Below are positions 18,347 through 45,912 of a stretch of DNA of 64,000 nucleotides, piece by piece. Position numbers and translations under genes: made by a program. This DNA is from Thermoplasmata archaeon (GTDB taxonomy: Archaea > Thermoplasmatota > Thermoplasmata > Lutacidiplasmatales > UBA184): assembly GCA_021817605.1 (NCBI GenBank), contig JAKAUN010000002.1, positions 3,676 to 67,675 on the forward strand. The letters are read 5' to 3'. The number at the start of each line of letters is the position of its first letter. The first letter of the stretch is position 1. The notes beneath the pieces are model-generated. The model saw only the letters and a list, made by a program, of their open reading frames with translations. It made no database searches and was not told the origin of the DNA.

Positions 18347-21300
18347 CTAGGGCACTTCCTTGCGGTCTGCGCACGCCGCGTCCGTGGGACGGTCCTCGTC
18401 TCCCGCGGTCTGCCCCCCAAGAGCAGCTCCCGACCGGGAGGCGCCCGCCGCGGCCAGGAGCAACGTCGTCGCGAGAGCGGCTGCCGCGGGGAGCGCGAGC
18501 CCGGCACCGCCCACCGGCCCGCCGACCGACAACGCGGACGGAAGGCGGGGGAGCGCGGGGGGGTTCATGGTGACGTTGACGAGCTGCCTCGGAGACGGCG
18601 CGTGGAGCACCGCAATCGTTCCGCTGGCAGGGGTCGGGGCCTGCGTGTTCGCGACCCCCACGGTGTAGGTGTAGTTGCCTATCGGCAAGAGGAAACGGAT
18701 GACGCCCTTGCCGGCGAGCTTCGAAAGGGTCGTGGGGAAGGTGAGCGCCGGGGTCGAGCCGGTCGCGATCGTGACCGTCCAGGTCGCCCCAGCCTGTAGG
18801 CCCTTCTCGCGGAAGACGATCGCCTCGGTCAGTAGGCGGAACTTCACCACCTTGGTGAGGGCATGCTTGGGAACGTGGAACCCACCCTTGGCCGGCAGGA
18901 CCTTGTACTCCGCTCCCGGGCCGGCGATCGCGAAGTGGAAGGCGGCGCCGGTCGGTAGGGAGAACGATATCGAGGTGCCGGTCGATGTCTTCGACTGGCC
19001 GGCGGGTCCGCCGTGGGGGAACGCGGGGGTGAGATCAACTCCCCAGGTCGACCCCGCGTACTTCTGGAACTTCGCTAGCGAGCTCTGGTTGAAGGTGACC
19101 GTCTGGAGGTGCCCGAAGATGACCGTCCACGTGGCGACCCCCGACAGCGAGTAGGTCGGGGTCCCGTAGGTCTGGTTGGGCGACCCCGGACCCGCGATCC
19201 TGGCGACCCCCCATCCTGCGGGCCCACTGATGTTGTAGACGAGGGCGCCTGCCGCCTCCGAGAACGAGACCGAACCTGTCGACCCGGTCCCGGTCGTCAC
19301 CGTGGTGTCGCTCCTCACGATCCCGAGAACATCCACCGACCAGAGCGCCCCGGCCGGGAGGTGGAGCTCCCGGAAGCGCAAGGTGTGCCCGAGCGACGCC
19401 GTGAAGACGATGGGGATGTTCACGGGGCTCCCGCTGATCGAGAACTGCCCGCCGTAGAGGCTCGCGGCGAACCCCGGCACGAAGGGGATGGTGAAGTTGT
19501 AGCTGATGTTTTGGGCGTCCATGACCATCGCGTCGGGAGCCGGGGCGGTCGCCGTCACCGTGCCCGGAGGCGTGCCGAAAGCATGGCCGATCGAGAGCGA
19601 CCAATTCGTCCCGTTCGGGAGACCGGTCTCCGTGAACGTGGCGAGTTCGCCGGCTAGCAGGCTCGAGTTCGTCACCGCGTAGGCCTTCGACCAGTAGACG
19701 CTGGTCCCCGCGAACACGTTCTCTTGGAGGGTGATCGTGGTGAGCCCGTTGAAGCAGTCCGTCGCCTCGATGGACGCCGTCGGCACGACACTGGCGGCGC
19801 AGCTAGCCGCCGACTGGCTCGCGCCGTTGGACCCGGACGTGCTGGTCCCGATCAGCACGTTGTGGGCTGCCATCTGCGCCGTCCCGATGAGGAAGATCCC
19901 CGGCGCCCCGCTCGCCGCGTTGTTGACCACGTTCGCATCCACGGTGGTGATTCCCGTGCCTTGCGGCTCGGTCACGATGCCGTAGGCGAGGCTGTCGGTC
20001 ACGGTGTTGCCGTCGATCGTCGCCGGGGCGCCCGCGATGCCCGCGTAGCTCGAGGTGTACATCGCATACAAGATTCCGACCGAGCTCGAGCCCACGTGGT
20101 TCGCCTCGATGTTGCACGTCAAAGCCCCCGGAGCACATCCGGCCCAGATCGCCGACGATTGGGTCTGGGTGAAGTAGGAGCCGCCGGTCTCGAAGGAGAA
20201 GCCGCGGACGGTGTTGCCTGAGACGGTCACCGAGCTACCCCAGACGATGATCCCGCCCTCGGAGGCCGCCGTATCGGCTGCCCCTGGGCCGAGAACCGTG
20301 TTGCCGATCACCGAGAAGGTCCCGGTGGGCTCGACCGACGTTGCGGGGAAGATGTCGCCCGCCTCGATCCCCACCGGGCCGCCGGGGCCGGCCCCGCCGG
20401 CTCCGAGCGTGACCGTCGAGGATTCGATCGTGGCGCTCGTCAGGGCGGGGGCCACGATGATCCCGTTGACAGCGCCCGTTCCGAGCGTCGTCGCGTCCTT
20501 CACCGTGACCCCGTTCGCTTGGACCCCGATCGAGTTGCCGTCGCTCGGGTAGCCCGTCGTGTTGATCGTGAAACTCGCCCCGTTGAGCGTGCTGTCGGCC
20601 CAGTAGTCCGTAACGTTGCCCGCAAAGCTCGAGCGCAACGTGGCGACCGTGCCGGCTACCGACACCAGGCTGGCGTTCGTCGGGATCCCGCTCGAGCTCA
20701 GCACGAGCTGGCCGGGAGCCGCGTGGACGAACACGAGCACCGGCTCGACCACCGCCGAGCCGCTGACGGAGCCAACACCCGGGGTGATCAGCGTGTTCTC
20801 GTACCACCCGCCAATCGCTCCGATGCCGTAGGAGAACGATCCGTTCTGGAGATCGCCGACGATCGACGCCGGCGCGGGAACGTTGGCCGTGGTGCCGTTC
20901 ATCGTCACGGACCAGTCGAGGCCCGGGGTAAGGCCGCTCTCGGACCACGTAACATGCTCCCCACCCCGCTGGAACGAAGTCGCCGGGTAGGTCGGGAAGG
21001 TCGCCGTCCAGTCCGGCGCGTTCGTCTGAGCGAAGATGTTGGCGTTCAGCGTGACCTCGGTCGCGGGGTTGAAGCAATCGGTGGCCTCGACCGACGCGGT
21101 CGGGATCGTCGAAGCGACGCAGCTCGCCTGACCTTGGAGCGCCCCGTTGGTGCCGGTGGTGTTCGTCCCCAGGAAGACGTTCCCGGTCAGCGAGAAGGTC
21201 CCTCCAATGAGATAGGCGCCTGGGGCGCCGCTGGGAGCACTGGCGAACGTGTTGGACTCGACCAGGGAGACTCCCGCGGCCCCGGTGGGCTCAAGGACCA

Positions 21301-22240
21301 TCCCGTAGGCGAGGCTGTTGGTGATGGTGTTGTGCAGGACCACTACGGCCGATTGAGCGATGCTCCCAAAACCGGAGGTCATGAGGGCGTAGACGATGCC
21401 GATGCCGTTCGTGTTGAGGGTGTTGGAGTTGATGTCGCACGCAGGCGCGCCTACGGCGCAGCCGGCGAGGATCCCCACGGACTGGGTGTCCTGGAACCAT
21501 GAGGAGTAGGTATTCGCACCGGAGGTCGTGGTCGTGTCCAGGGAGAATCCGCTCACCGTGCTGTTGGTGATCGCGACGGAGTTTCCGTAGACGACGATCC
21601 CGGTCTCGCCGGCGGTGCCTCCCGCACCAGGACCGACGACCGTGACCGCGTTCACGACGAAGGTGCCCGTGGGCTCGACCGCCGTGGCCGGGAATACGTT
21701 GCCGAGCTGAATCCCCAGAGCCGTCGTGCTTCCGGCGGCGAGCGTCACCGTCGAGCTTTCGATCGTCGCCGAGGAGGTGACGAGCGAAGGCGCCGCAAGG
21801 ATCCCGTCCGTGCTGCCGCTCGAGATCGTCACGAAATTCTGCACCGTGATGCCGTTCGCCTCGAGGCTGAGAGCCGCGAGGTCGGTGGGATACGCCGTCG
21901 CGTTGACCACGCACCCGGAGCCGTCCAGCATACTGTTGGCAAACGAATCAGAAAGGTTGCCCGAGAAGCCCTCGAGCACCGTCACCACCGAACCGTTGAC
22001 GGAGACCGCTGTCGGGTCGCTCGAGACCCCTCCGGCAGAGATGGTGACCGTCCCGAGACTACCGGCGGAGGGGCAGGCGGCCAAGGTGGAGAAGGCAGGC
22101 CCTCCCGGCGCCGATCCGACGGAGGACCCGAGGAAGGGGCCCGCGCCGGCAATCGTGGGGGCAAGGGCGAACCCCACCACCGCGAGGAGGCCGACCAGGG
22201 CCGCCCGGACCACCACGCGTCGAGGGGCGCTCATAGCCAC
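18347..22240 (-). CDS. Large secreted surface protein, an S-layer/cell-envelope glycoprotein candidate: signal peptide, two tandem ~440-aa beta-helix-like modules, C-terminal domains and a C-terminal transmembrane anchor
   Basis: 1297 aa. N-terminal Sec signal MAMSAPRRVVVRAALVGLLAVVGFALAPTIAGAG. Composition is T/S/G/A/N/V-rich with GNTV/NTVT-like beta-helix rung motifs. About 20 N-x-S/T sequons. Conserved Cys pairs C261/C268, C374/C389 are repeated as C702/C709, C814/C829. C-terminal hydrophobic helix LALPAAAALATTLLLAAAGA followed by a charged tail. Confidence 0.8.
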   Translation of the reverse strand: MAMSAPRRVVVRAALVGLLAVVGFALAPTIAGAGPFLGSSVGSAPGGPAFSTLAACPSAGSLGTVTISAGGVSSDPTAVSVNGSVVTVLEGFSGNLSDSFANSMLDGSGCVVNATAYPTDLAALSLEANGITVQNFVTISSGSTDGILAAPSLVTSSATIESSTVTLAAGSTTALGIQLGNVFPATAVEPTGTFVVNAVTVVGPGAGGTAGETGIVVYGNSVAITNSTVSGFSLDTTTTSGANTYSSWFQDTQSVGILAGCAVGAPACDINSNTLNTNGIGIVYALMTSGFGSIAQSAVVVLHNTITNSLAYGMVLEPTGAAGVSLVESNTFASAPSGAPGAYLIGGTFSLTGNVFLGTNTTGTNGALQGQASCVASTIPTASVEATDCFNPATEVTLNANIFAQTNAPDWTATFPTYPATSFQRGGEHVTWSESGLTPGLDWSVTMNGTTANVPAPASIVGDLQNGSFSYGIGAIGGWYENTLITPGVGSVSGSAVVEPVLVFVHAAPGQLVLSSSGIPTNASLVSVAGTVATLRSSFAGNVTDYWADSTLNGASFTINTTGYPSDGNSIGVQANGVTVKDATTLGTGAVNGIIVAPALTSATIESSTVTLGAGGAGPGGPVGIEAGDIFPATSVEPTGTFSVIGNTVLGPGAADTAASEGGIIVWGSSVTVSGNTVRGFSFETGGSYFTQTQSSAIWAGCAPGALTCNIEANHVGSSSVGILYAMYTSSYAGIAGAPATIDGNTVTDSLAYGIVTEPQGTGITTVDANVVNNAASGAPGIFLIGTAQMAAHNVLIGTSTSGSNGASQSAASCAASVVPTASIEATDCFNGLTTITLQENVFAGTSVYWSKAYAVTNSSLLAGELATFTETGLPNGTNWSLSIGHAFGTPPGTVTATAPAPDAMVMDAQNISYNFTIPFVPGFAASLYGGQFSISGSPVNIPIVFTASLGHTLRFRELHLPAGALWSVDVLGIVRSDTTVTTGTGSTGSVSFSEAAGALVYNISGPAGWGVARIAGPGSPNQTYGTPTYSLSGVATWTVIFGHLQTVTFNQSSLAKFQKYAGSTWGVDLTPAFPHGGPAGQSKTSTGTSISFSLPTGAAFHFAIAGPGAEYKVLPAKGGFHVPKHALTKVVKFRLLTEAIVFREKGLQAGATWTVTIATGSTPALTFPTTLSKLAGKGVIRFLLPIGNYTYTVGVANTQAPTPASGTIAVLHAPSPRQLVNVTMNPPALPRLPSALSVGGPVGGAGLALPAAAALATTLLLAAAGASRSGAALGGQTAGDEDRPTDAACADRKEVP
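19406..22000 (-). repeat. Intragenic tandem duplication, two ~1.3-kb modules (aa 81-500 and 526-945 of the surface protein)
   Basis: Collinear matches with offset 440-450 aa: GNLSDSF/GNVTDYW; ESSTVTLAAG/ESSTVTLGAG; TVSGFSLDT/TVRGFSFET; AGCAVGAPACDI/AGCAPGALTCNI; SLAYGMVLEP/SLAYGIVTEP; SCVASTIPTASVEATDCFN/SCAASVVPTASIEATDCFN; ESGLTPGLDWSVTMNG/ETGLPNGTNWSLSIG. Confidence 0.7.
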
Positions 22241-38272: not shown

Positions 38273-38279
38273 CTATATA
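38273..38279 (+). promoter_or_regulatory. Strong TATA box (CTATATA) in a locally AT-rich segment, ~60 nt upstream of the RHH gene ATG
   Basis: AACCTATATAGG stands out against ~70% GC flanks. The predicted TSS near 38300 gives a ~35-nt leader carrying the palindrome. Confidence 0.5.
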
Positions 38280-38301
38280 GGCGACCTCAGATATGTCAAT
38301 C

Positions 38302-38330
38302 GTCAGACAAAGAACCATATCTTGTCTGAC
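38302..38330. promoter_or_regulatory. Palindromic operator candidate GTCAGACAA-N11-TTGTCTGAC between the TATA box and the RHH start codon
   Basis: 9-bp arms with one extra A in the left arm; the spacer is AGAACCATATC. Additional CAATC direct repeats lie at 38297-38301 and 38331-38335. Confidence 0.45.
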
Positions 38331-38334
38331 AATC

Positions 38335-38700
38335 ATGTCCGACACGTCCGAGCGGGTCACCGTCCGCATCCCACAAGAGCTGCTGGAGAAGCTCAAGCAG
38401 ATTCAGCTATCCAAGGGGACGGCGACGATCTCCGACACGATACGGGAGGGGCTCGAGCAGTACATCGAGCTCAACCTGCCCCCCCAGCACATCCGCAAGG
38501 TCGTGGTCGAGCTCTCCCGCCAGGACAACAGCCGGCTCGAGGAGTTCGTCCGGGAAGGCAACTCCGTCAGCGTCGACGACGCCGTCCGCTCGGCCGTGCG
38601 GGAGTACATCCGCAGCCGGATCGATCAGCTGGCTCCGGCGTCCCGCTCCCCGCGCCGCGAGGGCGATACCGTCGCCGCCGCCGGCTCTCCGCCGGCGTGA
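38335..38700 (+). CDS. Tandem ribbon-helix-helix (CopG/Arc-like) DNA-binding protein
   Basis: MSDTSERVTVRIPQELLEKLKQIQLSKGTATISDTIREGLEQYIE forms a first beta-alpha-alpha unit. HIRKVVVELSRQDNSRLEEFVREGNSVSVDDAVRSAVREYIRS forms a second. The second ATG of track ORF 38293..38700 was chosen because the first 14 codons cover the operator palindrome. Confidence 0.7.
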   Translation: MSDTSERVTVRIPQELLEKLKQIQLSKGTATISDTIREGLEQYIELNLPPQHIRKVVVELSRQDNSRLEEFVREGNSVSVDDAVRSAVREYIRSRIDQLAPASRSPRREGDTVAAAGSPPA

Positions 38701-38714
38701 TAGGTCCCCTGTCC

Positions 38715-39740
38715 ATGTTCGACGGTCCGACGGCGGACGCCCTCCACGGCCTCTCGCTCGCCCCGTCGATCGCGGTCGTCGGGCTCGGAGGCGCCGGTTC
38801 GGAGGCGGTCGACGACCTCGTCAACCTCGGCCTGCCGGGGGCGCGCTCGCTCGCGGTGAACACCGACGCCCGCCACCTCAGCCACGTCCGGGCCGAGGAG
38901 CGGATCCTTCTCGGCCAGCGAGAGCTCGGCGGACGCGGGAGCGGCGGCGACCGTGCGGCGGTCCTTCGTGCCGCCGAGGACAGCCGCGAGGAGATCCTCC
39001 GAAGGCTCTCACGGTTCGAGCTCGTCTTCCTTCTCGCCGGCCTCGGAGGCGGAACCGGGAGCGCCCTGCTCCCGTTCCTCGTCAAGGAGCTCAGGAAGAC
39101 CGAGGCGCTCCCCGTGCCGGTCGTCTTCCTGCCGTTCCGCGTGGAGCTCGAGGCGAACCCCGGCCGTCGGCAGAACGTCGAGGAGACGATCGCCGAGCTC
39201 GAAGGACTCGGGGGCCTCCTCCTCGTCCTCGCCAACGAGAAGCTCCGCCGGTTCGAGTCGCTGCCGGTCCACCGCGTCTTCGGCGTGCGCAACGCCTACC
39301 TCCACGCCCTGATCGCCAACCTGGTCGACATCGTCGACCATCCCTCGCAACTCAACGTCGATCTCGCGAGCGTGAAGAGCCACCTTCGTCAGTCGGGGCT
39401 CTCGACCCTGATCATCGGCGAGGAGCACATCTCCGAGCCGGCCCGGCTCGTGCAGCGCGCCCTCTCCGATTCGCTCCTTGATTTCGAGCTCCCCTACCGG
39501 CCGAGCGCGCTCGTCCACCTGGAAGGGGGAACGAACCTCACGCTCCGCGTCCTGGACGAGGTGCTCCACACCGTTCGGGAGCACCTCGGCGAGCCGGCCC
39601 GCCTCACCTTCGGGGCGAGGATCCGCCCGGAACCGTGCGAGGTCGTCCGACTGACCGCTGTCCTCGGCGGGCTCAAGCCCCGCACCGTCCACGAGGCCGT
39701 CGCCCGGCTTCCCCCGTCGGCTCCGCTCGCCGCCCGCTAG
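38715..39740 (+). CDS. Short divergent FtsZ/tubulin-family GTPase, 341 aa. T7-loop Asp is replaced by Ser and there is no C-terminal linker/tail
   Basis: Internal ATG of read-through ORF 37242..39740, 14 nt after the RHH stop. IAVVGLGGAGSEAVDDL (G1 box), AVNTDARHL, ELVFLLAGLGGGTGSALLP (the tubulin signature GGGTGSG-like), VVFLPFRVE...ANEKL, QLNVDLASVKS (cf. FtsZ NVDFADV). Confidence 0.8.
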   Translation: MFDGPTADALHGLSLAPSIAVVGLGGAGSEAVDDLVNLGLPGARSLAVNTDARHLSHVRAEERILLGQRELGGRGSGGDRAAVLRAAEDSREEILRRLSRFELVFLLAGLGGGTGSALLPFLVKELRKTEALPVPVVFLPFRVELEANPGRRQNVEETIAELEGLGGLLLVLANEKLRRFESLPVHRVFGVRNAYLHALIANLVDIVDHPSQLNVDLASVKSHLRQSGLSTLIIGEEHISEPARLVQRALSDSLLDFELPYRPSALVHLEGGTNLTLRVLDEVLHTVREHLGEPARLTFGARIRPEPCEVVRLTAVLGGLKPRTVHEAVARLPPSAPLAAR

Positions 39741-40375
39741 CCTTCGGGCCGCGCCCGAGCCTCCCGGGACCGAGCCCGGGCTTCCCGGACGTCGAGCTCG
39801 TGGTGAAAGATGTCCAGCACCTGGCTGGTCCGCAGCACCCTCGGGCCGACCGACAGCCGGGGGACCCCGCTCCGTTCGAGGACCGCGCGCTCCTCGACTG
39901 TCGGGTCGTGGGGGTCGGAGACGACCGCCGCGACCTCCGGGCCGGCCGGGAGCCCCTCCGCGAGCGGGTTTCCGTCCTCGGAAAGCCAGAGAGCGCCCGA
40001 CCGGGAGAGAAAGCTCCCGAGGTAGGCGAGGGGGTCGACCGGTCCCACGGAGAGACCCGGCGAGGACTCGAAGTCACGCTCGACGTTCGCGGCACGCACG
40101 AGGGCGTTCTTGAGCAGAGCGGCGGTCGACCGCTCGTCCGGATTGAGATAGCGGAGGCGGGCCCCGACAAGCTCCACCCGGCGGGAGGCCGGGGGAGGCT
40201 CGGCGGCGAAGAGGATCGCGACCTCGGTGTCGCGGCGAAGGGTGTTCGACAGGGTGAAGGCGGTCGAGACCGCGCGGGCGACCTCGTCCATCCGTCCCGC
40301 GCCGCCCGCGAGGTCGTTGAGAGTGAACTCCCCCCGGACCGGAACCTTGTGGGCGAGCAGGAGGAAGCGGCGCAT
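39737..40375 (-). CDS. trmY: tRNA (pseudouridine54-N1)-methyltransferase TrmY (SPOUT, DUF358)
   Basis: Met at codon 113 of track ORF 39737..40711: MRRFLLLAHKVPVRGEFTLNDLAGGAGRMDEVARAVSTAFTLSNTLRRDTEVAILF. Upstream codons are R/P-rich noise. Confidence 0.8.
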   Translation of the reverse strand: MRRFLLLAHKVPVRGEFTLNDLAGGAGRMDEVARAVSTAFTLSNTLRRDTEVAILFAAEPPPASRRVELVGARLRYLNPDERSTAALLKNALVRAANVERDFESSPGLSVGPVDPLAYLGSFLSRSGALWLSEDGNPLAEGLPAGPEVAAVVSDPHDPTVEERAVLERSGVPRLSVGPRVLRTSQVLDIFHHELDVREARARSREARARPEG

Positions 40376-40428: not shown

Positions 40429-41091
40429 CTACCCGACCCCGCCCGCGCGACGGCCACGCGGGGCGGCGGGAGGCTCCGGCGCGGGGCTCTGGCGTCGCTC
40501 GAGCCAGATCTCGTCGCCGAGCTCGTGGTAGACGGCGTGGTCGGCCATGCCGGTCCCCCGCTCCCCGTGGGGGAGACGGAAGCCCGAGGCCCGGTTGAGG
40601 TTCGGCGAGTAGACGACATCGGCCTCGCCGGCGGCAGCCATCGCCGCGGACTCCTCCCGAGCCAGCTCGAAGATGCGCTCCTTGCGGAACATCCAGTAGT
40701 GGATGCGCCACTCGCGCCCGTCGTAGAGGGTGGTCTCGTCCCGCTCGGTCTCGAGGATCCCGGTGTCCTCCAGCATGTAGAACGTGTCGCGGTCGTCCGG
40801 CTCTAGGACGTTGTCGATGATACGCTCGTTGAAGCCAAAGAAGTTGAGGACGTGGGCAGCGATCGAGCGGGCATCCTCGGCACGCATCCCGTCGTGCCCG
40901 ACGGAGCGGCGGATCGCCTTGGCGAGCGAGTCGAAATCGACCGGCCCGCTCGCGTCGACCAACGTCGCGTCGGTCGGCAGACCCATCCGGGTCTGCGAGA
41001 TGTCCTCCGCGGTCCTCAACGGGACCGGGTTCCTAAGAGTATAATGCGCCGTGCCCTCCGCCCGCGAAGGGCGCCCCCCCGTGCCCGTCAC
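40429..41091 (-). CDS. Hypothetical protein; start may be Met36 at 40986
   Basis: Balanced composition (..NFFGFNERIIDNVLEPDDRDTFYMLEDTGILETERDETTLYDGREWRIHYWMFRKERIFELA..). No family recognised. Confidence 0.4.
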   Translation of the reverse strand: MTGTGGRPSRAEGTAHYTLRNPVPLRTAEDISQTRMGLPTDATLVDASGPVDFDSLAKAIRRSVGHDGMRAEDARSIAAHVLNFFGFNERIIDNVLEPDDRDTFYMLEDTGILETERDETTLYDGREWRIHYWMFRKERIFELAREESAAMAAAGEADVVYSPNLNRASGFRLPHGERGTGMADHAVYHELGDEIWLERRQSPAPEPPAAPRGRRAGGVG

Positions 41092-41189: not shown

Positions 41190-41771
41190 TCAGAGCACGA
41201 CCCGACGGCCCCGTCCGACGCGCTGAAGCGCCTCGACCCCCGGACGCCACTCCTCCTCCTCGATCCGGAACTCGACCTCCGCGAGCTGGGAGAGCTCCTT
41301 CGGGAACGGCAGGAGAGACTTCGCGAGGTAGACGTGGGCGTACGGCGAGCCGGACGGGGCGCTCCAGCCCTTGCCCGTGTCCACCACGCCGCGGAACTCG
41401 TAGTACTCGGGCGCCGGCAAGAACCAGACCACGCTGTCGTCGGTCGCTCTCAGTCCCGAGGGCGGACGAGGAAGGAGCTGGAGCCCGAGGTGGTGGGCGA
41501 CCTGAGCGGGGAGCGTGAAGAGCAGCCGTTCGCCCGGGCGCGCGGTGGCGATGAGACGGTTGCGGACCGTCTCCACCGCGAGGGCCTCCCGAGCGGGGTA
41601 GGTCGCGATCACCCGCGCGATCCCCGACCCCCGGCTGAGGAAGGAGATCGAGCGGCTTGCGGGCCGACCACCCGCCCCGACCGGGTCGTAGCGGAGGAGC
41701 GCGGCGACCTCGGTGGGAAGCTGCATGGTGAGCCACGTCGGGTGCGTCGCGCGCAGGACGACGTACTCCAT
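41190..41771 (-). CDS. Hypothetical protein with two putative swapped-hairpin (AbrB/MraZ-like) motifs
   Basis: WLTMQLPTEVAALLRYDP and RLLFTLPAQVAHHLGLQLL resemble the xvxIPxxVRxxLGL beta-hairpin motifs. The competing overlapping ORFs are R-rich artefacts. Confidence 0.4.
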   Translation of the reverse strand: MEYVVLRATHPTWLTMQLPTEVAALLRYDPVGAGGRPASRSISFLSRGSGIARVIATYPAREALAVETVRNRLIATARPGERLLFTLPAQVAHHLGLQLLPRPPSGLRATDDSVVWFLPAPEYYEFRGVVDTGKGWSAPSGSPYAHVYLAKSLLPFPKELSQLAEVEFRIEEEEWRPGVEALQRVGRGRRVVL

Positions 41772-44202: not shown

Positions 44203-45912
44203 CTAGGTCGACATCCCCGGCGCGCTCTTGAGCGCCCGGATCTTGTAGTACTCGGGGTCGACGATGACCTCGCCGTTGACGCCCATCGTCTCGATCGTCT
44301 TCAGCTTGAGGCCGCCCTGCGACTTCGCCCGCTGCCAGTCGGGGATCGGGATCGAGAACTTCTTCTCGACCTCGGTCCGGTAGATCGGCCCGGAGTTGTA
44401 CGAGCAGAACGGGATGACCCGCCCGTCCGGGACCGCGTAGTGGATGTCGCAGCGCATCAGCCGCTGGATGTCGTAGTCGTAGGCGTCCTGGAAGTGCATG
44501 TTGCCGATGTAGAGCGTCCTCCAGGTGAACTTCGCGACGGCCTCCTTGTTGCCCTCGGTGAAGATCGAGGCGATCAGCCGCACGCAGTTCTTCTCCGTCA
44601 CGCCCTCCGGCGCCTTGGTGAAGTCGAAGTACTTCGCGACGTCGTGGAGGAGCCGCGCCCCGGCGACCACCGTCCGCACGCGCGAGAACCGCGCGTCGCG
44701 GTACTTCTCGATCATCCCCTCGACGTTCTCGAAGAAGCCGTCGACGTCCATGAACCGCGGCAGCGGGGTGATCTTCTCCCCGTCCTTGGAGACGAAGGCG
44801 AAGGTCGCGCAGCCGCAGCCCGGGTGCGTCGTGAGGGTCATCTTCTCCTCGCCGTGGATGATCGAGGCGAGCTCGGAGATCGGCGCGACCGACGGCACGG
44901 GGAAGAAGTCGGACTTGTCGAAGGGCCCGTCGGTGCAGAGGATGCGGACGAGGTCGGACTGGGTGAACCGCATCTGGAAGCGGTCCTTGTCGGGGATGCG
45001 GGCGGTCAGGGCGACCGGCTGGAAGTTGACGCCGCGCACGACGTCAAGGTTGTCGATCGCGAACTTGACCGTCGGCCAGATCTCCTTCTCGTTGAACCCG
45101 CCGACCAGCGTCGGGACGAGCACGACGGAGAGAGGCTTGTCCGGCTTACCCGCGGCGAGCTCGGAGGCCGGCGAGTGGGTCTCGCGGGCCGCCTGGATCG
45201 CCTTCTGCTTCACCTTGAACAGCGGCACACCACGGACCTTGCGGTAGATCTCGTCGTCCAGACCGTCGAACTGCAGGTAGAGGGTGTGCAGGCCCGCGTC
45301 CCGGGAGGCCTGGGCGAAGCCGGGCTCGTTGGCCACGCGGATCCCGTTGGTCGCGACCTGGATCTGCTTGAAGCCGAGGTCGCGGGACATCGACACCGCG
45401 TCTAGGAACAGCGGAGAGAGGGTCGGCTCGCCTCCGGAGAACTGGACCGCGACGGTGCCGACCGGCTTCTGCTCGCGCAGGGTCTTCAGCATGAAGTAGA
45501 TCTGCTCGCGGGTGGGCTCGAAGACGTAGCCTGCGGCGTTCGCGTTCGCGAAGCAGACAGGGCACTTGAGATTGCAGCGGTTGGTCAGGTCCACCAGGGC
45601 GAGCCCGGTGTGCGACTTGTGGTGGCTGCACATCCCGCAGGTGGTGGGGCAGCCGCGGAACTTGTCGTAGTAGGGGTTCTCGTAGCCGACCCCGTCGTGG
45701 GCATAGACCTCCATCCGCAGGTAGAAGTCCACGTCGTTGGAGATGATGTCCCAGAAGTAGCCGTGGGCTCGGCAGGTCTTCTCCATGATGACCCGGCCGT
45801 CTTTCTCGCGGACGATGGCGGGAATGACCTTGATGCACTCCGGGCAGACCGAGGCGGTCTTCCGGGGGAGGCCCCGCGGGGCCTGGAACTCCTTCATCAC
45901 TCGTGCCGGCAT
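44203..45912 (-). CDS. Radical SAM enzyme resembling tetraether lipid synthase Tes (GDGT/MAS synthase); family assignment tentative
   Basis: 569 aa. N-terminal rubredoxin-like Cys ligands (CPECIK...CRAHG; GCPTTCGMCSHH). CNLKCPVCFANA is a CxxxCxxC radical SAM motif. Further Cys clusters (GCGCATF; CVRL; CDIHY; FCSYNSG) and a long C-terminal domain. Confidence 0.6.
   Translation of the reverse strand: MPARVMKEFQAPRGLPRKTASVCPECIKVIPAIVREKDGRVIMEKTCRAHGYFWDIISNDVDFYLRMEVYAHDGVGYENPYYDKFRGCPTTCGMCSHHKSHTGLALVDLTNRCNLKCPVCFANANAAGYVFEPTREQIYFMLKTLREQKPVGTVAVQFSGGEPTLSPLFLDAVSMSRDLGFKQIQVATNGIRVANEPGFAQASRDAGLHTLYLQFDGLDDEIYRKVRGVPLFKVKQKAIQAARETHSPASELAAGKPDKPLSVVLVPTLVGGFNEKEIWPTVKFAIDNLDVVRGVNFQPVALTARIPDKDRFQMRFTQSDLVRILCTDGPFDKSDFFPVPSVAPISELASIIHGEEKMTLTTHPGCGCATFAFVSKDGEKITPLPRFMDVDGFFENVEGMIEKYRDARFSRVRTVVAGARLLHDVAKYFDFTKAPEGVTEKNCVRLIASIFTEGNKEAVAKFTWRTLYIGNMHFQDAYDYDIQRLMRCDIHYAVPDGRVIPFCSYNSGPIYRTEVEKKFSIPIPDWQRAKSQGGLKLKTIETMGVNGEVIVDPEYYKIRALKSAPGMST

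What the first reader, a model, noticed from the sequence alone, without database searches (positions are those of the whole stretch)
38715..39740. FtsZ-like protein has a T7-loop Asp-to-Ser substitution and lacks the C-terminal linker and tail
Alignment by eye is collinear with the FtsZ GTPase and C-terminal domains. VVGLGGAGSEAV matches VIGVGGGGNNAV, NTDARHL matches NTDAQAL, GLGGGTGSALLP matches GMGGGTGTGAAP, and ANEKL matches NDKL. The synergy-loop motif reads QLNVDLASVKS where FtsZ has NVDFADV, so the second Asp (E. coli D212, needed to activate GTP hydrolysis in the neighbouring subunit) is Ser. The protein ends right after the C-terminal domain, so there is no conserved C-terminal peptide for membrane-anchor partners. 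These traits fit a GTP-binding, slowly hydrolysing or capping FtsZ paralog rather than a division FtsZ.
Basis: partly seen in the sequence, partly recalled or inferred. Interest (0 to 1): 0.6.

Follow-up and report, generated by a model that had tools for sequence, protein, structure and literature searches.

The report
Divergent archaeal FtsZ2 with altered GTPase site
An abundant group of uncultured soil and peat archaea (Thermoplasmata) carries, in the usual place of the cell-constriction gene ftsZ2, a well-conserved FtsZ protein whose GTP-hydrolysis site has been rewritten on both sides of the subunit interface, so it probably builds unusually stable filaments.

Summary
The ORF at 38715..39740 (+) is real and encodes a 341-aa protein with the full FtsZ fold. 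The T7 substitution is confirmed. HMMER places NVDLAS on M. jannaschii NVDFAD, so Ser219 replaces E. coli D212. It is not an error. The identical protein occurs in at least six independent assemblies. All 120 closest homologs and 77/77 related loci have Ser/Thr there. The codon AGC is two changes from GAY, and dN/dS is 0.15-0.36.

- T1 Asn to Glu.
- Last Gly of the GGGTG[ST]G signature to Ala (Gly in 93/93 other FtsZ representatives).
- T3 Pro to Arg and Gly to Val.

The "no tail" claim is only partly right. There is an 18-26-aa tail without the SepF-binding GID motif, but it ends in a semi-conserved P-hydrophobic-hydrophobic-[A/V]-[H/R] peptide.

It is not an accessory paralog by position. 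It follows a tandem ribbon-helix-helix regulator, as in the archaeal cdrS-ftsZ2 operon, and scores best against an FtsZ2 profile.

Best reading: a fast-evolved FtsZ2 ortholog that is probably hydrolysis-impaired. I could not determine whether a canonical FtsZ1 partner exists in these genomes.

The parts
38274..38279 (+). TATA-box-like hexamer (TATATA) upstream of the RHH gene
   Evidence: An AT hexamer in a 70% GC region. It is conserved in the orthologous upstream regions of L007, L008 and L009. Promoter function is inferred.
38302..38330 (+). Perfect 9-bp inverted repeat GTCAGACAA-N11-TTGTCTGAC between the TATA box and the RHH start. Candidate operator for the RHH protein.
   Evidence: The arms are invariant and the spacer sequence is variable in window/L007/L008/L009. 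The pattern GTCAGACAR-N(5-20)-YTGTCTGAC was found in 59 loci, always with an 11-nt spacer. Binding is not tested.
38335..38700 (+). Tandem ribbon-helix-helix protein (121 aa), CdrS-like, first gene of the operon
   Evidence: Pfam RHH_1 at 1.7e-07 (residues 21-59 of the 135-aa ORF). There are weak NCBIfam hits to aCcr1 and to haloarchaeal CdrS (E 1e-4, below cut-off) over the second half. The gene is called from 38335 in independent assemblies, and the longer ORF is interrupted in L009. It is 80-84% identical in L007-L009. It is present upstream in 61/64 loci. It aligns end to end (36-47% identity) with the RHH genes preceding FtsZ2-type genes P0137, P0149, P0491 and P0504.
38715..39740 (+). 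FtsZ-family gene (341 aa plus stop): divergent FtsZ2-type protein
   Evidence: Pfam Tubulin plus FtsZ_C. TIGR00065 scores 190 bits against a cut-off of 295. AlphaFold pLDDT 85, pTM 0.84. Foldseek top hits are M. jannaschii and S. aureus FtsZ, TM up to 0.92. dN/dS 0.15-0.36.
38781..38807 (+). T1 loop GLGGAGSEA (residues 23-31). Glu30 replaces the Asn found in 89/93 other FtsZ representatives (E. coli N24).
   Evidence: Identical in 77/77 loci.
38931..38963 (+). T3 loop region GRGSGGDRAAV (residues 73-83). Arg80 replaces Pro (E. coli P74) and Val83 replaces Gly (E. coli G77).
   Evidence: Both are 100% fixed in the clade. In the others, P is 87% and G is 92%.
39045..39065 (+). Tubulin signature motif reads GGGTGSA (residues 111-117). 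The last Gly (E. coli G111) is Ala.
   Evidence: Gly in 93/93 other representatives and Ala in 100% of the clade. GGGTGSA in 77/77 loci.
39144..39167 (+). T5 loop ELEANPGR (residues 144-151) with a 3-residue insertion relative to E. coli E138-R142 and M. jannaschii
   Evidence: Gap in the HMMER alignment to 1FSZ. Residue numbering.
39354..39371 (+). T7/H8 motif NVDLAS (residues 214-219). Ser219 (AGC, 39369-39371) replaces the catalytic Asp (E. coli D212, M. jannaschii D238).
39684..39737 (+). C-terminal tail (residues 324-341), predicted disordered from residue 331. No GID motif. Terminal pentapeptide PLAAR at 39723-39737.
   Evidence: pLDDT below 50 for residues 331-341. Tail statistics and terminal-peptide frequencies.
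39737..40375 (-). Convergent neighbour TrmY-like SPOUT tRNA methyltransferase, overlapping the FtsZ stop codon by 4 nt. Context only, not part of the system.
   Evidence: Pfam Methyltrn_RNA_2 at 2.9e-30. NCBIfam TrmY scores 138 bits, below its cut-off of 183. Gene limits. Conserved in L007 and L009.

Best explanation
What it is. This is the FtsZ2-type gene of a GC-rich, uncultured Thermoplasmata lineage. It is most likely co-transcribed with a CdrS-like tandem ribbon-helix-helix regulator from a promoter carrying a conserved palindromic operator. The protein keeps the complete FtsZ fold and most nucleotide-contacting residues. It has evolved fast and fixed changes on both halves of the composite GTPase site.
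- In trans: the water-activating Asp of the T7/H8 motif is Ser.
- In cis: T1 Asn to Glu, the last Gly of GGGTG[ST]G to Ala, T3 Pro to Arg and Gly to Val, and a 3-residue T5 insertion.

Inferred mechanism. The protein still assembles head-to-tail like FtsZ. It cannot efficiently trigger hydrolysis of the nucleotide in the subunit below it. The interfaces it forms are therefore long-lived, and it builds slow-turnover filaments. These could be homopolymers or co-polymers with an FtsZ1 encoded elsewhere. It would act as a stable scaffold in division or constriction rather than a treadmilling polymer. Loss of the GID motif implies that canonical SepF tethering is lost or changed. The conserved terminal P-hydrophobic-hydrophobic-[A/V]-[H/R] peptide is the candidate replacement docking site.

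Shown: sequence features, their conservation, purifying selection, fold and synteny.
Inferred: operon transcription, reduced GTPase, filament stability, role in division and partner binding.
For: Fold and sequence:
- Fold and family.
- Ser at the D212 position, by two alignment methods.
- Clade-wide fixation: 120/120 homologs and 77/77 loci for T1, T4 and T7.
- Uniqueness among 93 other representatives (G111 in 93/93, N24 in 89/93, D212 in 88/93).
- Independent assemblies.
- Purifying selection and an AGC codon in all orthologs.

FtsZ2 identity:
- RHH upstream in 61/64 loci.
- An orthologous tandem RHH sits upstream of canonical FtsZ2-type genes (LDNNRL, NLDFAD) in other Thermoplasmata and euryarchaeal MAGs.
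- Literature: ftsZ2 context usually holds an RHH_1/ParD-like gene (PMC9871819; PMC8178401), and cdrS-ftsZ2 is a conserved co-transcribed unit (PMC7439475).
- Profile scores are about 250 bits for FtsZ2, against 219 for FtsZ1 and 200 for bacterial FtsZ.

Functional inference:
- E. coli D209/D212 mutations severely impair GTPase activity and function (10.1101/677963).
- H. volcanii FtsZ2.D231A fails to complement (10.1101/2020.06.04.133736). The supplement figure titles call the T7 mutants dominant-inhibitory.
- NxDxx[D/E] and GGGTG[T/S]G are the conserved hydrolysis and binding motifs (PMC12583498).
- The GID motif mediates SepF binding (PMC8178401; PMC12583498).
Against: - No biochemical data exist. 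A Ser hydroxyl, the retained Asp216 (E. coli D209), or the new Glu30/Arg80 could sustain some hydrolysis.
- The pocket changes (G to A, N to E) might weaken or abolish GTP binding, which would argue against GTP-driven assembly at all.
- Phylogenetic placement is weak. The clade sits on a very long branch, about 30-35% identical to FtsZ1, FtsZ2 and bacterial FtsZ alike. It has ANE instead of the FtsZ2 DNN triplet. The FtsZ2 profile advantage is only 30-40 bits, against about 90-100 for bona fide FtsZ2.
- Presence of FtsZ1, SepF, PRC-barrel or ESCRT genes in these genomes was not determined. None is in the 64-kb window. No second FtsZ lies within 10 kb in the 80 metagenome loci or in the other fetched clade loci.
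Confidence: 0.6

Rival explanations
1. Non-catalytic partner or cap of a canonical FtsZ (beta-tubulin-like logic). The protein does not work alone. It co-assembles with an FtsZ1 encoded elsewhere. Wherever its T7 face sits on an FtsZ1-bound GTP, that GTP is not hydrolysed, so it stabilises or caps FtsZ1 filaments and tunes ring turnover. This is essentially the first reader's reading.
For: - The T7 Asp is lost while the fold is kept.
- Thermoplasmata surveyed so far have at least one FtsZ1 (Liao et al. supplement Table S3).
- FtsZ1 and FtsZ2 co-localise in H. volcanii, and T7 mutants co-localise with the other wild-type FtsZ.
- Odinarchaeal FtsZ1 and FtsZ2 co-sediment.
- From my own knowledge: beta-tubulin has Lys where alpha-tubulin has the catalytic Glu254, which leaves the N-site GTP unhydrolysed.
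Against: - No FtsZ1 was found in the window or any fetched locus, and its presence in these genomes is untested.
- The cis pocket (T1, T3, T4, T5) is remodelled as well as T7. A pure cap on a canonical partner does not require that. Co-evolution of a homotypic interface or abandonment of hydrolysis fits it better.
Confidence: 0.25
2. Decaying or repurposed FtsZ. As in other Thermoplasmata that have lost SepF, PRC-barrel proteins or FtsZ altogether, division may have shifted to ESCRT-III/Vps4. This FtsZ2 would then be a relaxed remnant or have a non-division role, possibly as a nucleotide-independent pseudo-GTPase scaffold.
For: - Several Thermoplasmata encode FtsZ without SepF/PRC or lack all three, and carry a minimal ESCRT system (PMC11188069).
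- The GID motif, the N-tail motif and three near-invariant active-site residues are lost.
- PGAP calls the protein 'hypothetical' because it fails the FtsZ model cut-off.
Against: - Purifying selection is strong (dN/dS 0.15-0.36).
- 79% mean column identity across 28 clade members, with long invariant stretches that include the altered motifs themselves.
- The regulator gene, operator and gene order are conserved in dozens of loci.
- So this is not a pseudogene, and the new residues are themselves under constraint.
Confidence: 0.1
3. Sequencing or assembly artefact, or a strain-specific mutation at the Ser codon.
Against: - The identical protein occurs in 6 independent assemblies.
- Ser/Thr is present in 120/120 homologs and 77/77 loci.
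- The AGC codon differs from GAY at two positions and is shared by orthologs that are only 72-77% identical.
Confidence: 0.01

Closest known systems
Archaeal FtsZ2 (e.g. Haloferax volcanii HVO_0581, Halobacterium VNG0192G) in the cdrS-ftsZ2 operon
   Same: - Two-domain FtsZ fold.
- Lies immediately downstream of a small ribbon-helix-helix regulator gene.
- Scores best against an FtsZ2-type profile.
- Short N-tail.
   Different: - T7 Asp to Ser, whereas HvFtsZ2 D231 is required for function.
- Signature reads GGGTGSA.
- T1 Asn to Glu.
- T6-H6 triplet is ANE, not DNN.
- No GID/LGIDVIR C-terminal motif, and the tail is about 20 aa against a mean spacer of 37 aa.
- The regulator is a tandem RHH of 121 aa, only weakly similar to haloarchaeal CdrS.
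- About 32-35% identity to canonical FtsZ2-type proteins.
Engineered T7 mutants: E. coli FtsZ D212A/G/N and H. volcanii FtsZ1.D250A / FtsZ2.D231A
   Same: The same catalytic position is non-acidic. The expected consequence is loss of trans-activation of GTP hydrolysis and hyper-stable interfaces.
   Different: Those are laboratory mutations that are non-functional or dominant-negative. Here the substitution is natural, fixed across a clade under purifying selection, and accompanied by pocket changes that may compensate.
Beta-tubulin (Lys at the position of the alpha-tubulin catalytic Glu254)
   Same: A natural member of the superfamily whose T7 motif reads N-x-D-x-x-(non-acidic). The nucleotide it covers is therefore not hydrolysed. 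This is the conceptual model for a non-catalytic subunit. This comparison rests on my own knowledge.
   Different: Tubulin C-terminal domain rather than FtsZ_C. Tubulin forms an obligate heterodimer with a known partner. No partner is identified here, and the cis pocket is also altered.
Methanocaldococcus jannaschii FtsZ1 (PDB 1FSZ, 1W5A, 2VAP)
   Same: Closest solved structure by sequence (E 2e-45, 35% identity) and by fold (Foldseek E 3e-29). Tail length is similar, about 21 aa.
   Different: MjFtsZ1 has canonical GGAGNN, GGGTGTG and NVDFAD motifs and an H0 N-terminal helix.
Other RHH-linked degenerate FtsZ (cluster representative P0149), and the 'deep-branching' FtsZ pair of Thermoplasma acidophilum noted by Liao et al.
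   Same: P0149 also follows an orthologous tandem RHH. It is short (326 aa), has a short tail, and has a T7 deviation (N207 to Q). This shows that FtsZ2-type genes have diverged more than once in this part of the archaeal tree.
   Different: P0149 keeps both Asp residues, the signature Gly and the T1 Asn. The T. acidophilum sequences were not examined here.

Membership tests
FtsZ family (tubulin/FtsZ superfamily) | Tubulin/FtsZ GTPase domain followed by the FtsZ C-terminal domain; FtsZ three-dimensional fold | tested here: met
   PF00091 at 1.8e-27 and PF12327 at 1e-10. AlphaFold pLDDT 85. Foldseek to FtsZ structures with probability 1.00 and TM up to 0.92.
FtsZ family (tubulin/FtsZ superfamily) | Tubulin signature GTP-binding motif GGGTG[ST]G | tested here: not met
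   Reads GGGTGSA. The last Gly is Ala in 100% of the clade and Gly in 93/93 other representatives.
FtsZ family (tubulin/FtsZ superfamily) | T7/H8 hydrolysis motif NxDxx[D/E] | tested here: not met
   Reads NVDLAS. Ser/Thr in 120/120 homologs and 77/77 loci.
FtsZ family (tubulin/FtsZ superfamily) | Score above the curated cut-off of the NCBIfam equivalog model TIGR00065 (ftsZ) | tested here: not met
   190.4 bits against a cut-off of 295.2. NCBI annotates clade members as 'hypothetical protein'.
FtsZ family (tubulin/FtsZ superfamily) | GTP-dependent head-to-tail polymerisation with polymerisation-activated GTPase | not testable with these tools
   Needs purified protein.
Archaeal FtsZ2 | Gene immediately downstream of a cdrS-like RHH (ParD/CopG-like) gene | tested here: met
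   The RHH gene ends 14 nt upstream. It is present in 61/64 loci. It is orthologous to the RHH genes upstream of canonical FtsZ2-type genes. Literature.
Archaeal FtsZ2 | Groups with FtsZ2 in phylogeny or profile comparison | tested here: inconclusive
   The FtsZ2 profile scores about 250 bits, against 219 for FtsZ1 and 200 for bacterial FtsZ. However, the NJ tree shows an isolated long branch, and identity to every group is 30-35%.
Archaeal FtsZ2 | T6-H6 triplet DNN (HvFtsZ2 184-186) | tested here: not met
   Reads ANE (LANEKL). FtsZ2-type representatives have [DE]N[ND], and FtsZ1 and bacterial FtsZ have PN[DE].
Archaeal FtsZ2 | C-terminal GID-centred motif (LGIDVIR) that binds SepF | tested here: not met
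   The clade tails show no GID motif. A loose G[ILVM][DEP] pattern matches 8 of 115 tails, but it is not a conserved motif. The terminal P-[VLI]-[FLVA]-[AV]-[HRDG] may be a remnant of the second half of the motif (compare GIPILQR and GIPLIQ in other FtsZ2-type proteins).
Archaeal FtsZ2 | N-terminal amphipathic approximately 9-aa motif (MQDIVEEAL-like) | tested here: not met
   The N-tail is 17 aa (MFDGPTADALHGLSLAPS). The clade consensus is only x-W-A-x-L-A-x-x-P.
CetZ | Closer to CetZ/tubulin than to FtsZ; no FtsZ_C domain recognised by Pfam | tested here: not met
   CetZ structures match only residues 19-141, at E 4e-8 to 8e-8. FtsZ structures match full length at 2e-45. FtsZ_C is present.
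FtsZ-like families FtsZl-1/2 (Tubulin_2, PF13809) | Tubulin_2 domain, no FtsZ_C, large extensions | tested here: not met
   Pfam reports only PF00091 and PF12327. The family is described in PMC9871819.

The most novel reading that the evidence does not exclude
The composite GTPase site has been re-engineered rather than merely broken. The trans-acting T7 Asp was given up while new charged residues were fixed in the cis pocket: Glu30 in T1 and Arg80 in T3, next to a signature Gly to Ala change. The nucleotide would then be one of three things:
- a permanent structural cofactor, like the N-site GTP of alpha-tubulin, in a non-dynamic FtsZ2 filament;
- hydrolysed by a cis mechanism uncoupled from polymerisation;
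- bound with altered specificity.

If the lineage also lacks SepF or FtsZ1, this would be a natural FtsZ-based division system that works without polymerisation-activated GTP hydrolysis and without the universal archaeal anchor.
Probability: 0.15. Interest if true: 0.8.

Novelty: new variant of a known kind. Interest (0 to 1): 0.55.

Why it matters
The T7 acidic residue and the GGGTG[ST]G glycines are treated as near-universal in FtsZ and tubulin. Engineered T7 mutants of both bacterial FtsZ and archaeal FtsZ2 are non-functional. Here an abundant environmental clade keeps such an "impossible" FtsZ2 under purifying selection, in its normal operon. I found it in 80 JGI metagenome contigs and 3 GTDB species genomes; the window protein itself occurs in 6 ENA/Logan assemblies.

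This is a natural experiment on a long-running question: does FtsZ-driven constriction need GTP hydrolysis and treadmilling, or can a static FtsZ scaffold suffice in wall-less or S-layer archaea?

It also gives concrete, cheap biochemical tests (S219D, A117G and E30N back-mutations). It flags a protein family that NCBI's pipeline currently labels "hypothetical". The conserved operator plus tandem RHH is a tractable handle on archaeal cell-cycle regulation outside haloarchaea.

Tried and rejected
1. Assembly or sequencing error: rejected.

2. Finding the partner FtsZ:
- I searched with P0267, a GC-rich FtsZ representative. It is a rare singleton with no link to these MAGs.
- I searched with P0137. 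This recovered the canonical RHH-linked FtsZ2-type family of other Thermoplasmata lineages (lower GC, different accession series), not a second FtsZ of this lineage.
- GC-rich hits P0491 and P0504 have their own RHH-ftsZ2 operon in a different context, so they are orthologs from other lineages.
- NCBI accession numbers proved useless for assigning proteins to MAGs. Two MAGs with different locus-tag prefixes have interleaved numbers.
- tblastn found no second FtsZ in the window, in the fetched clade loci or in 80 metagenome loci totalling 800 kb.
- The genome-contig scan returned only 3 clade loci because the patterns came from a single sequence.

3. Intermediate relatives that would date the D to S change: none exist. 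The clade is one 50%-identity cluster, then identity drops to 35% or less. The apparent 41% intermediate P0129 is a frameshifted clade member.

4. NJ phylogeny could not place the clade because of its long branch.

5. SepF, PRC-barrel and ESCRT genes: no Pfam hits among about 45 window genes.

6. Literature on the structural role of the T1 Asn (E. coli N24): nothing usable found. Its role is stated only as 'pocket residue'.

7. CetZ, TubZ and Tubulin_2 identities: rejected.
Full report
**1. The observation**

Pfam finds the Tubulin/FtsZ GTPase domain (residues 18-179, E 1.8e-27) and FtsZ_C (234-321, E 1e-10). The NCBIfam equivalog model for FtsZ matches end to end but scores 190 bits against a cut-off of 295.

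HMMER alignments to M. jannaschii FtsZ1 structures (E 2e-45) align 'qlnvdlasvks' with 'linvdfadvka'. A MAFFT alignment with E. coli FtsZ gives N207=N214, D209=D216 and D212=S219. The Ser codon is AGC at 39369-39371. So the T7 claim is correct as stated.

**2. It is not an error and not chance**

- The identical 341-aa protein is called on contigs from three ENA assemblies and three Logan run assemblies.
- The 120 closest database proteins are 68-100% identical and are named Thermoplasmata archaeon where a name exists. Nearly all are 332-346 aa. All carry NVDL[AS][ST][LV]K.
- So do 77 of 77 loci recovered from GTDB genomes and JGI metagenomes in which the gene could be parsed.
- Orthologs that are 72-77% identical all use AGC, which is two substitutions from GAY. 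dN/dS is 0.15-0.36.
- Among 93 other FtsZ cluster representatives, the position is Asp in 88, His in 2, Asn in 2 and Ser in 1.

**3.

Comparing 115 clade members with those 93 representatives shows further clade-fixed replacements at positions that are otherwise near-invariant.

| Element | E. coli residue | Residue here | Other representatives |
|---|---|---|---|
| T1 loop | N24 | Glu30 | Asn in 89/93, never Glu |
| Signature GGGTG[ST]G, last Gly | G111 | Ala117 | Gly in 93/93 |
| After signature | A112 | Leu | Ala in 76/93 |
| T3 loop | P74 | Arg80 | Pro in 81/93 |
| T3 loop | G77 | Val83 | Gly in 86/93 |
| Preceding T3 | T65 | Leu | Thr in 81/93 |
| Before T5 | T132 | Phe | Thr in 81/93 |

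There is also a three-residue insertion in T5. GLGGAGSEA and GGGTGSA are identical in 77/77 loci. None of the few other representatives with T7 deviations shares these pocket changes.

Both halves of the composite active site are therefore altered: the pocket in cis and T7 in trans. The altered residues are themselves invariant within the clade. Residues that contact ribose and base are retained (E144, R151, N174, F189, N193), so nucleotide binding is plausible but not assured.

**4. The tails**

AlphaFold (87-sequence alignment, pLDDT 85, pTM 0.84) gives a canonical FtsZ fold. Residues 1-14 and 331-341 are disordered. Foldseek returns only FtsZ structures at the top. S. aureus FtsZ gives TM 0.92 and rmsd 2.0 Å, and M. 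jannaschii FtsZ1 gives the best E-value.

After the core there are 18-26 residues, with a median of 22. This is no shorter than M. jannaschii FtsZ1, and it falls within the FtsZ1 range reported by Liao et al..

The archaeal N-tail motif and the C-terminal GID / LGID[FV][VI][ER] motif are both missing. The C-terminal motif is the one that binds SepF.

The extreme C-terminus is nevertheless semi-conserved. Its pattern is P-[VLI]-[FLVA]-[AV]-[HRDG], with examples PVFVH, PLLAD, PLVAR and here PLAAR. It resembles the second half of variants such as GIPILQR and GIPLIQ in other FtsZ2-type proteins. 'No tail and no conserved peptide' is thus only partly right.

**5. What it is**

A full scan of 1.8 billion cluster representatives shows that the clade is a single 50%-identity cluster plus fragments. 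The next relatives are 35% identical or less. The apparent intermediate P0129 is a frameshifted member of the clade. An NJ tree gives an isolated long branch.

Synteny resolves the identity:
- Fourteen nucleotides upstream ends a 121-aa tandem ribbon-helix-helix protein (38335..38700). It has a Pfam RHH_1 hit and weak aCcr1 and CdrS hits.
- It is 80-84% identical in related MAGs and present in 61/64 loci.
- It aligns over its whole length (36-47% identity) with the 104-105-aa RHH genes that immediately precede canonical FtsZ2-type genes. Those genes have T6-H6 LDNNRL and T7 NLDFAD. They come from other Thermoplasmata and euryarchaeal MAGs (P0137, P0491, P0504), and the same RHH precedes another degenerate FtsZ (P0149).

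An RHH/ParD-like gene next to ftsZ2 is the known hallmark of archaeal ftsZ2 (PMC9871819; PMC8178401). In haloarchaea cdrS-ftsZ2 is a co-transcribed unit required for division (PMC7439475).

Home-made profiles agree. The clade scores about 250 bits against FtsZ2-type, 219 against archaeal FtsZ1 and 200 against bacterial FtsZ. However, canonical FtsZ2 proteins score about 440.

I conclude that this is the positional, and probably true, ortholog of FtsZ2 that has evolved very fast. It is not an added paralog. Failure of the DNN triplet, GID and N-tail tests is recorded in the membership table.

**6. Regulation (noticed while checking the operon)**

Upstream of the RHH gene lie a TATA-like hexamer (38274-38279) and a perfect inverted repeat GTCAGACAA-N11-TTGTCTGAC (38302-38330). 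These are conserved while the surrounding sequence is not. The repeat occurs in 59 loci, always with an 11-nt spacer. It is a strong candidate for an autoregulatory operator.

**7. Mechanism**

Established knowledge:
- The T7/H8 acidic residue of the upper subunit activates hydrolysis of the GTP bound to the lower one.
- E. coli D209/D212 mutants lose GTPase activity and function (10.1101/677963).
- H. volcanii FtsZ1.D250A and FtsZ2.D231A fail to complement. The supplement figure titles describe them as dominant-inhibitory T7 mutants. The same paper notes that bacterial T7 mutants form hyper-stable filaments.

Inference: this protein cannot efficiently activate hydrolysis in trans, so the interfaces it makes are long-lived. 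Because the cis pocket has co-changed, I favour a self-consistent, slow-turnover polymer that acts as a stable division or constriction scaffold (confidence about 0.6 for the whole statement).

A beta-tubulin-like non-catalytic partner or cap of an FtsZ1 is the main rival (0.25). A repurposed remnant in a lineage shifting to ESCRT is a minor one (0.1). Some Thermoplasmata lack SepF/PRC or FtsZ altogether (PMC11188069).

Loss of GID predicts loss or change of SepF tethering. The conserved terminal peptide is the candidate new docking site.

**8. What remains open**

I could not establish whether these genomes also encode FtsZ1, SepF, PRC-barrel proteins or ESCRT.
- None is in the 64-kb window, which is an ordinary archaeal housekeeping region. 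It encodes aEF-1alpha, S10, S13/S4/S11, an eRF1-family protein, DnaJ, topoisomerase, UvrA, a proteasome alpha subunit, Kdp and SerRS.
- No second FtsZ lies within 10 kb in the 80 metagenome loci or in the other fetched clade loci.
- Thermoplasmata surveyed by Liao et al. have at least one FtsZ1, so a partner is likely but unproven.

**9. Verdict**

This is a new variant of a known kind, currently annotated as a hypothetical protein, with a clear experimental path. Interest 0.55.

Noticed in passing
window 38274-38330 (also L007, L008, L009 and 59 metagenome loci): Conserved TATA-like box and a perfect 9-bp inverted repeat GTCAGACAA-N11-TTGTCTGAC just upstream of the RHH gene. The spacer length is invariant (11 nt) while the spacer sequence varies. 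Likely an operator for the tandem RHH regulator.
   Followed up: partly
window 38335-38700: The upstream regulator is a tandem RHH. It has an N-terminal RHH_1 and a second, CdrS-like RHH around residues 54-100 of the 121-aa protein, so it could fold as a single-chain pseudo-dimer. The same 104-121-aa architecture precedes FtsZ2-type genes in several other archaeal lineages (L019, L021, L023, L026). It is longer than haloarchaeal CdrS, whose NCBIfam model is 61 positions long.
   Followed up: partly
proteins P0125, P0126, P0127 (representative search): Proteins of 744-840 aa contain two complete FtsZ cores in tandem and were among the best non-clade hits. In P0127 the first core lacks a recognisable NxDxxD motif, so it may be a covalently fused FtsZ pair with one degenerate T7.
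   Followed up: no
L021 671-1651 (protein P0149): A second, independent degenerate RHH-linked FtsZ. It is 326 aa, its T7 reads QLDFPD (E. coli N207 to Gln), and it has an 18-aa tail without GID. Its RHH is 72-78% identical to those next to canonical FtsZ2-type genes, but the FtsZ itself is only 47-49% identical.
   Followed up: partly
proteins P0164, P0168, P0237, P0215, P0268, P0147: Sporadic natural deviations in the T7 motif among FtsZ cluster representatives: D212 to S, H, H, N and N respectively, and D209 to S in P0147. None has the pocket changes seen in this clade.
   Followed up: no
window 39737-39740: The FtsZ gene and the convergent TrmY-like SPOUT methyltransferase gene (39737..40375, minus strand) overlap by 4 nt at their stop codons. 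In other lineages a convergent SpoU-type methylase occupies the same position after FtsZ2-type genes (L016, L019). An HMPTM-type radical SAM gene recurs a few genes further on (window 44203-45912 and L016).
   Followed up: partly
window 18347-22240 (minus strand): Very long ORF (1297 aa) with only a weak beta-helix Pfam hit and atypically low first-position GC. Possibly a surface or S-layer-type protein.
   Followed up: no
window 40429-41091 and 41190-41771 (minus strand): A DUF6015 protein and a 193-aa protein with no Pfam match. Both are conserved (66-86% identity) next to the operon in related MAGs. Function unknown.
   Followed up: no
database annotation: NCBI's pipeline names clade members 'hypothetical protein' because they fall below the FtsZ model cut-off, whereas JGI calls them 'cell division protein FtsZ'. 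Surveys that count FtsZ by annotation would miss this family.
   Followed up: yes
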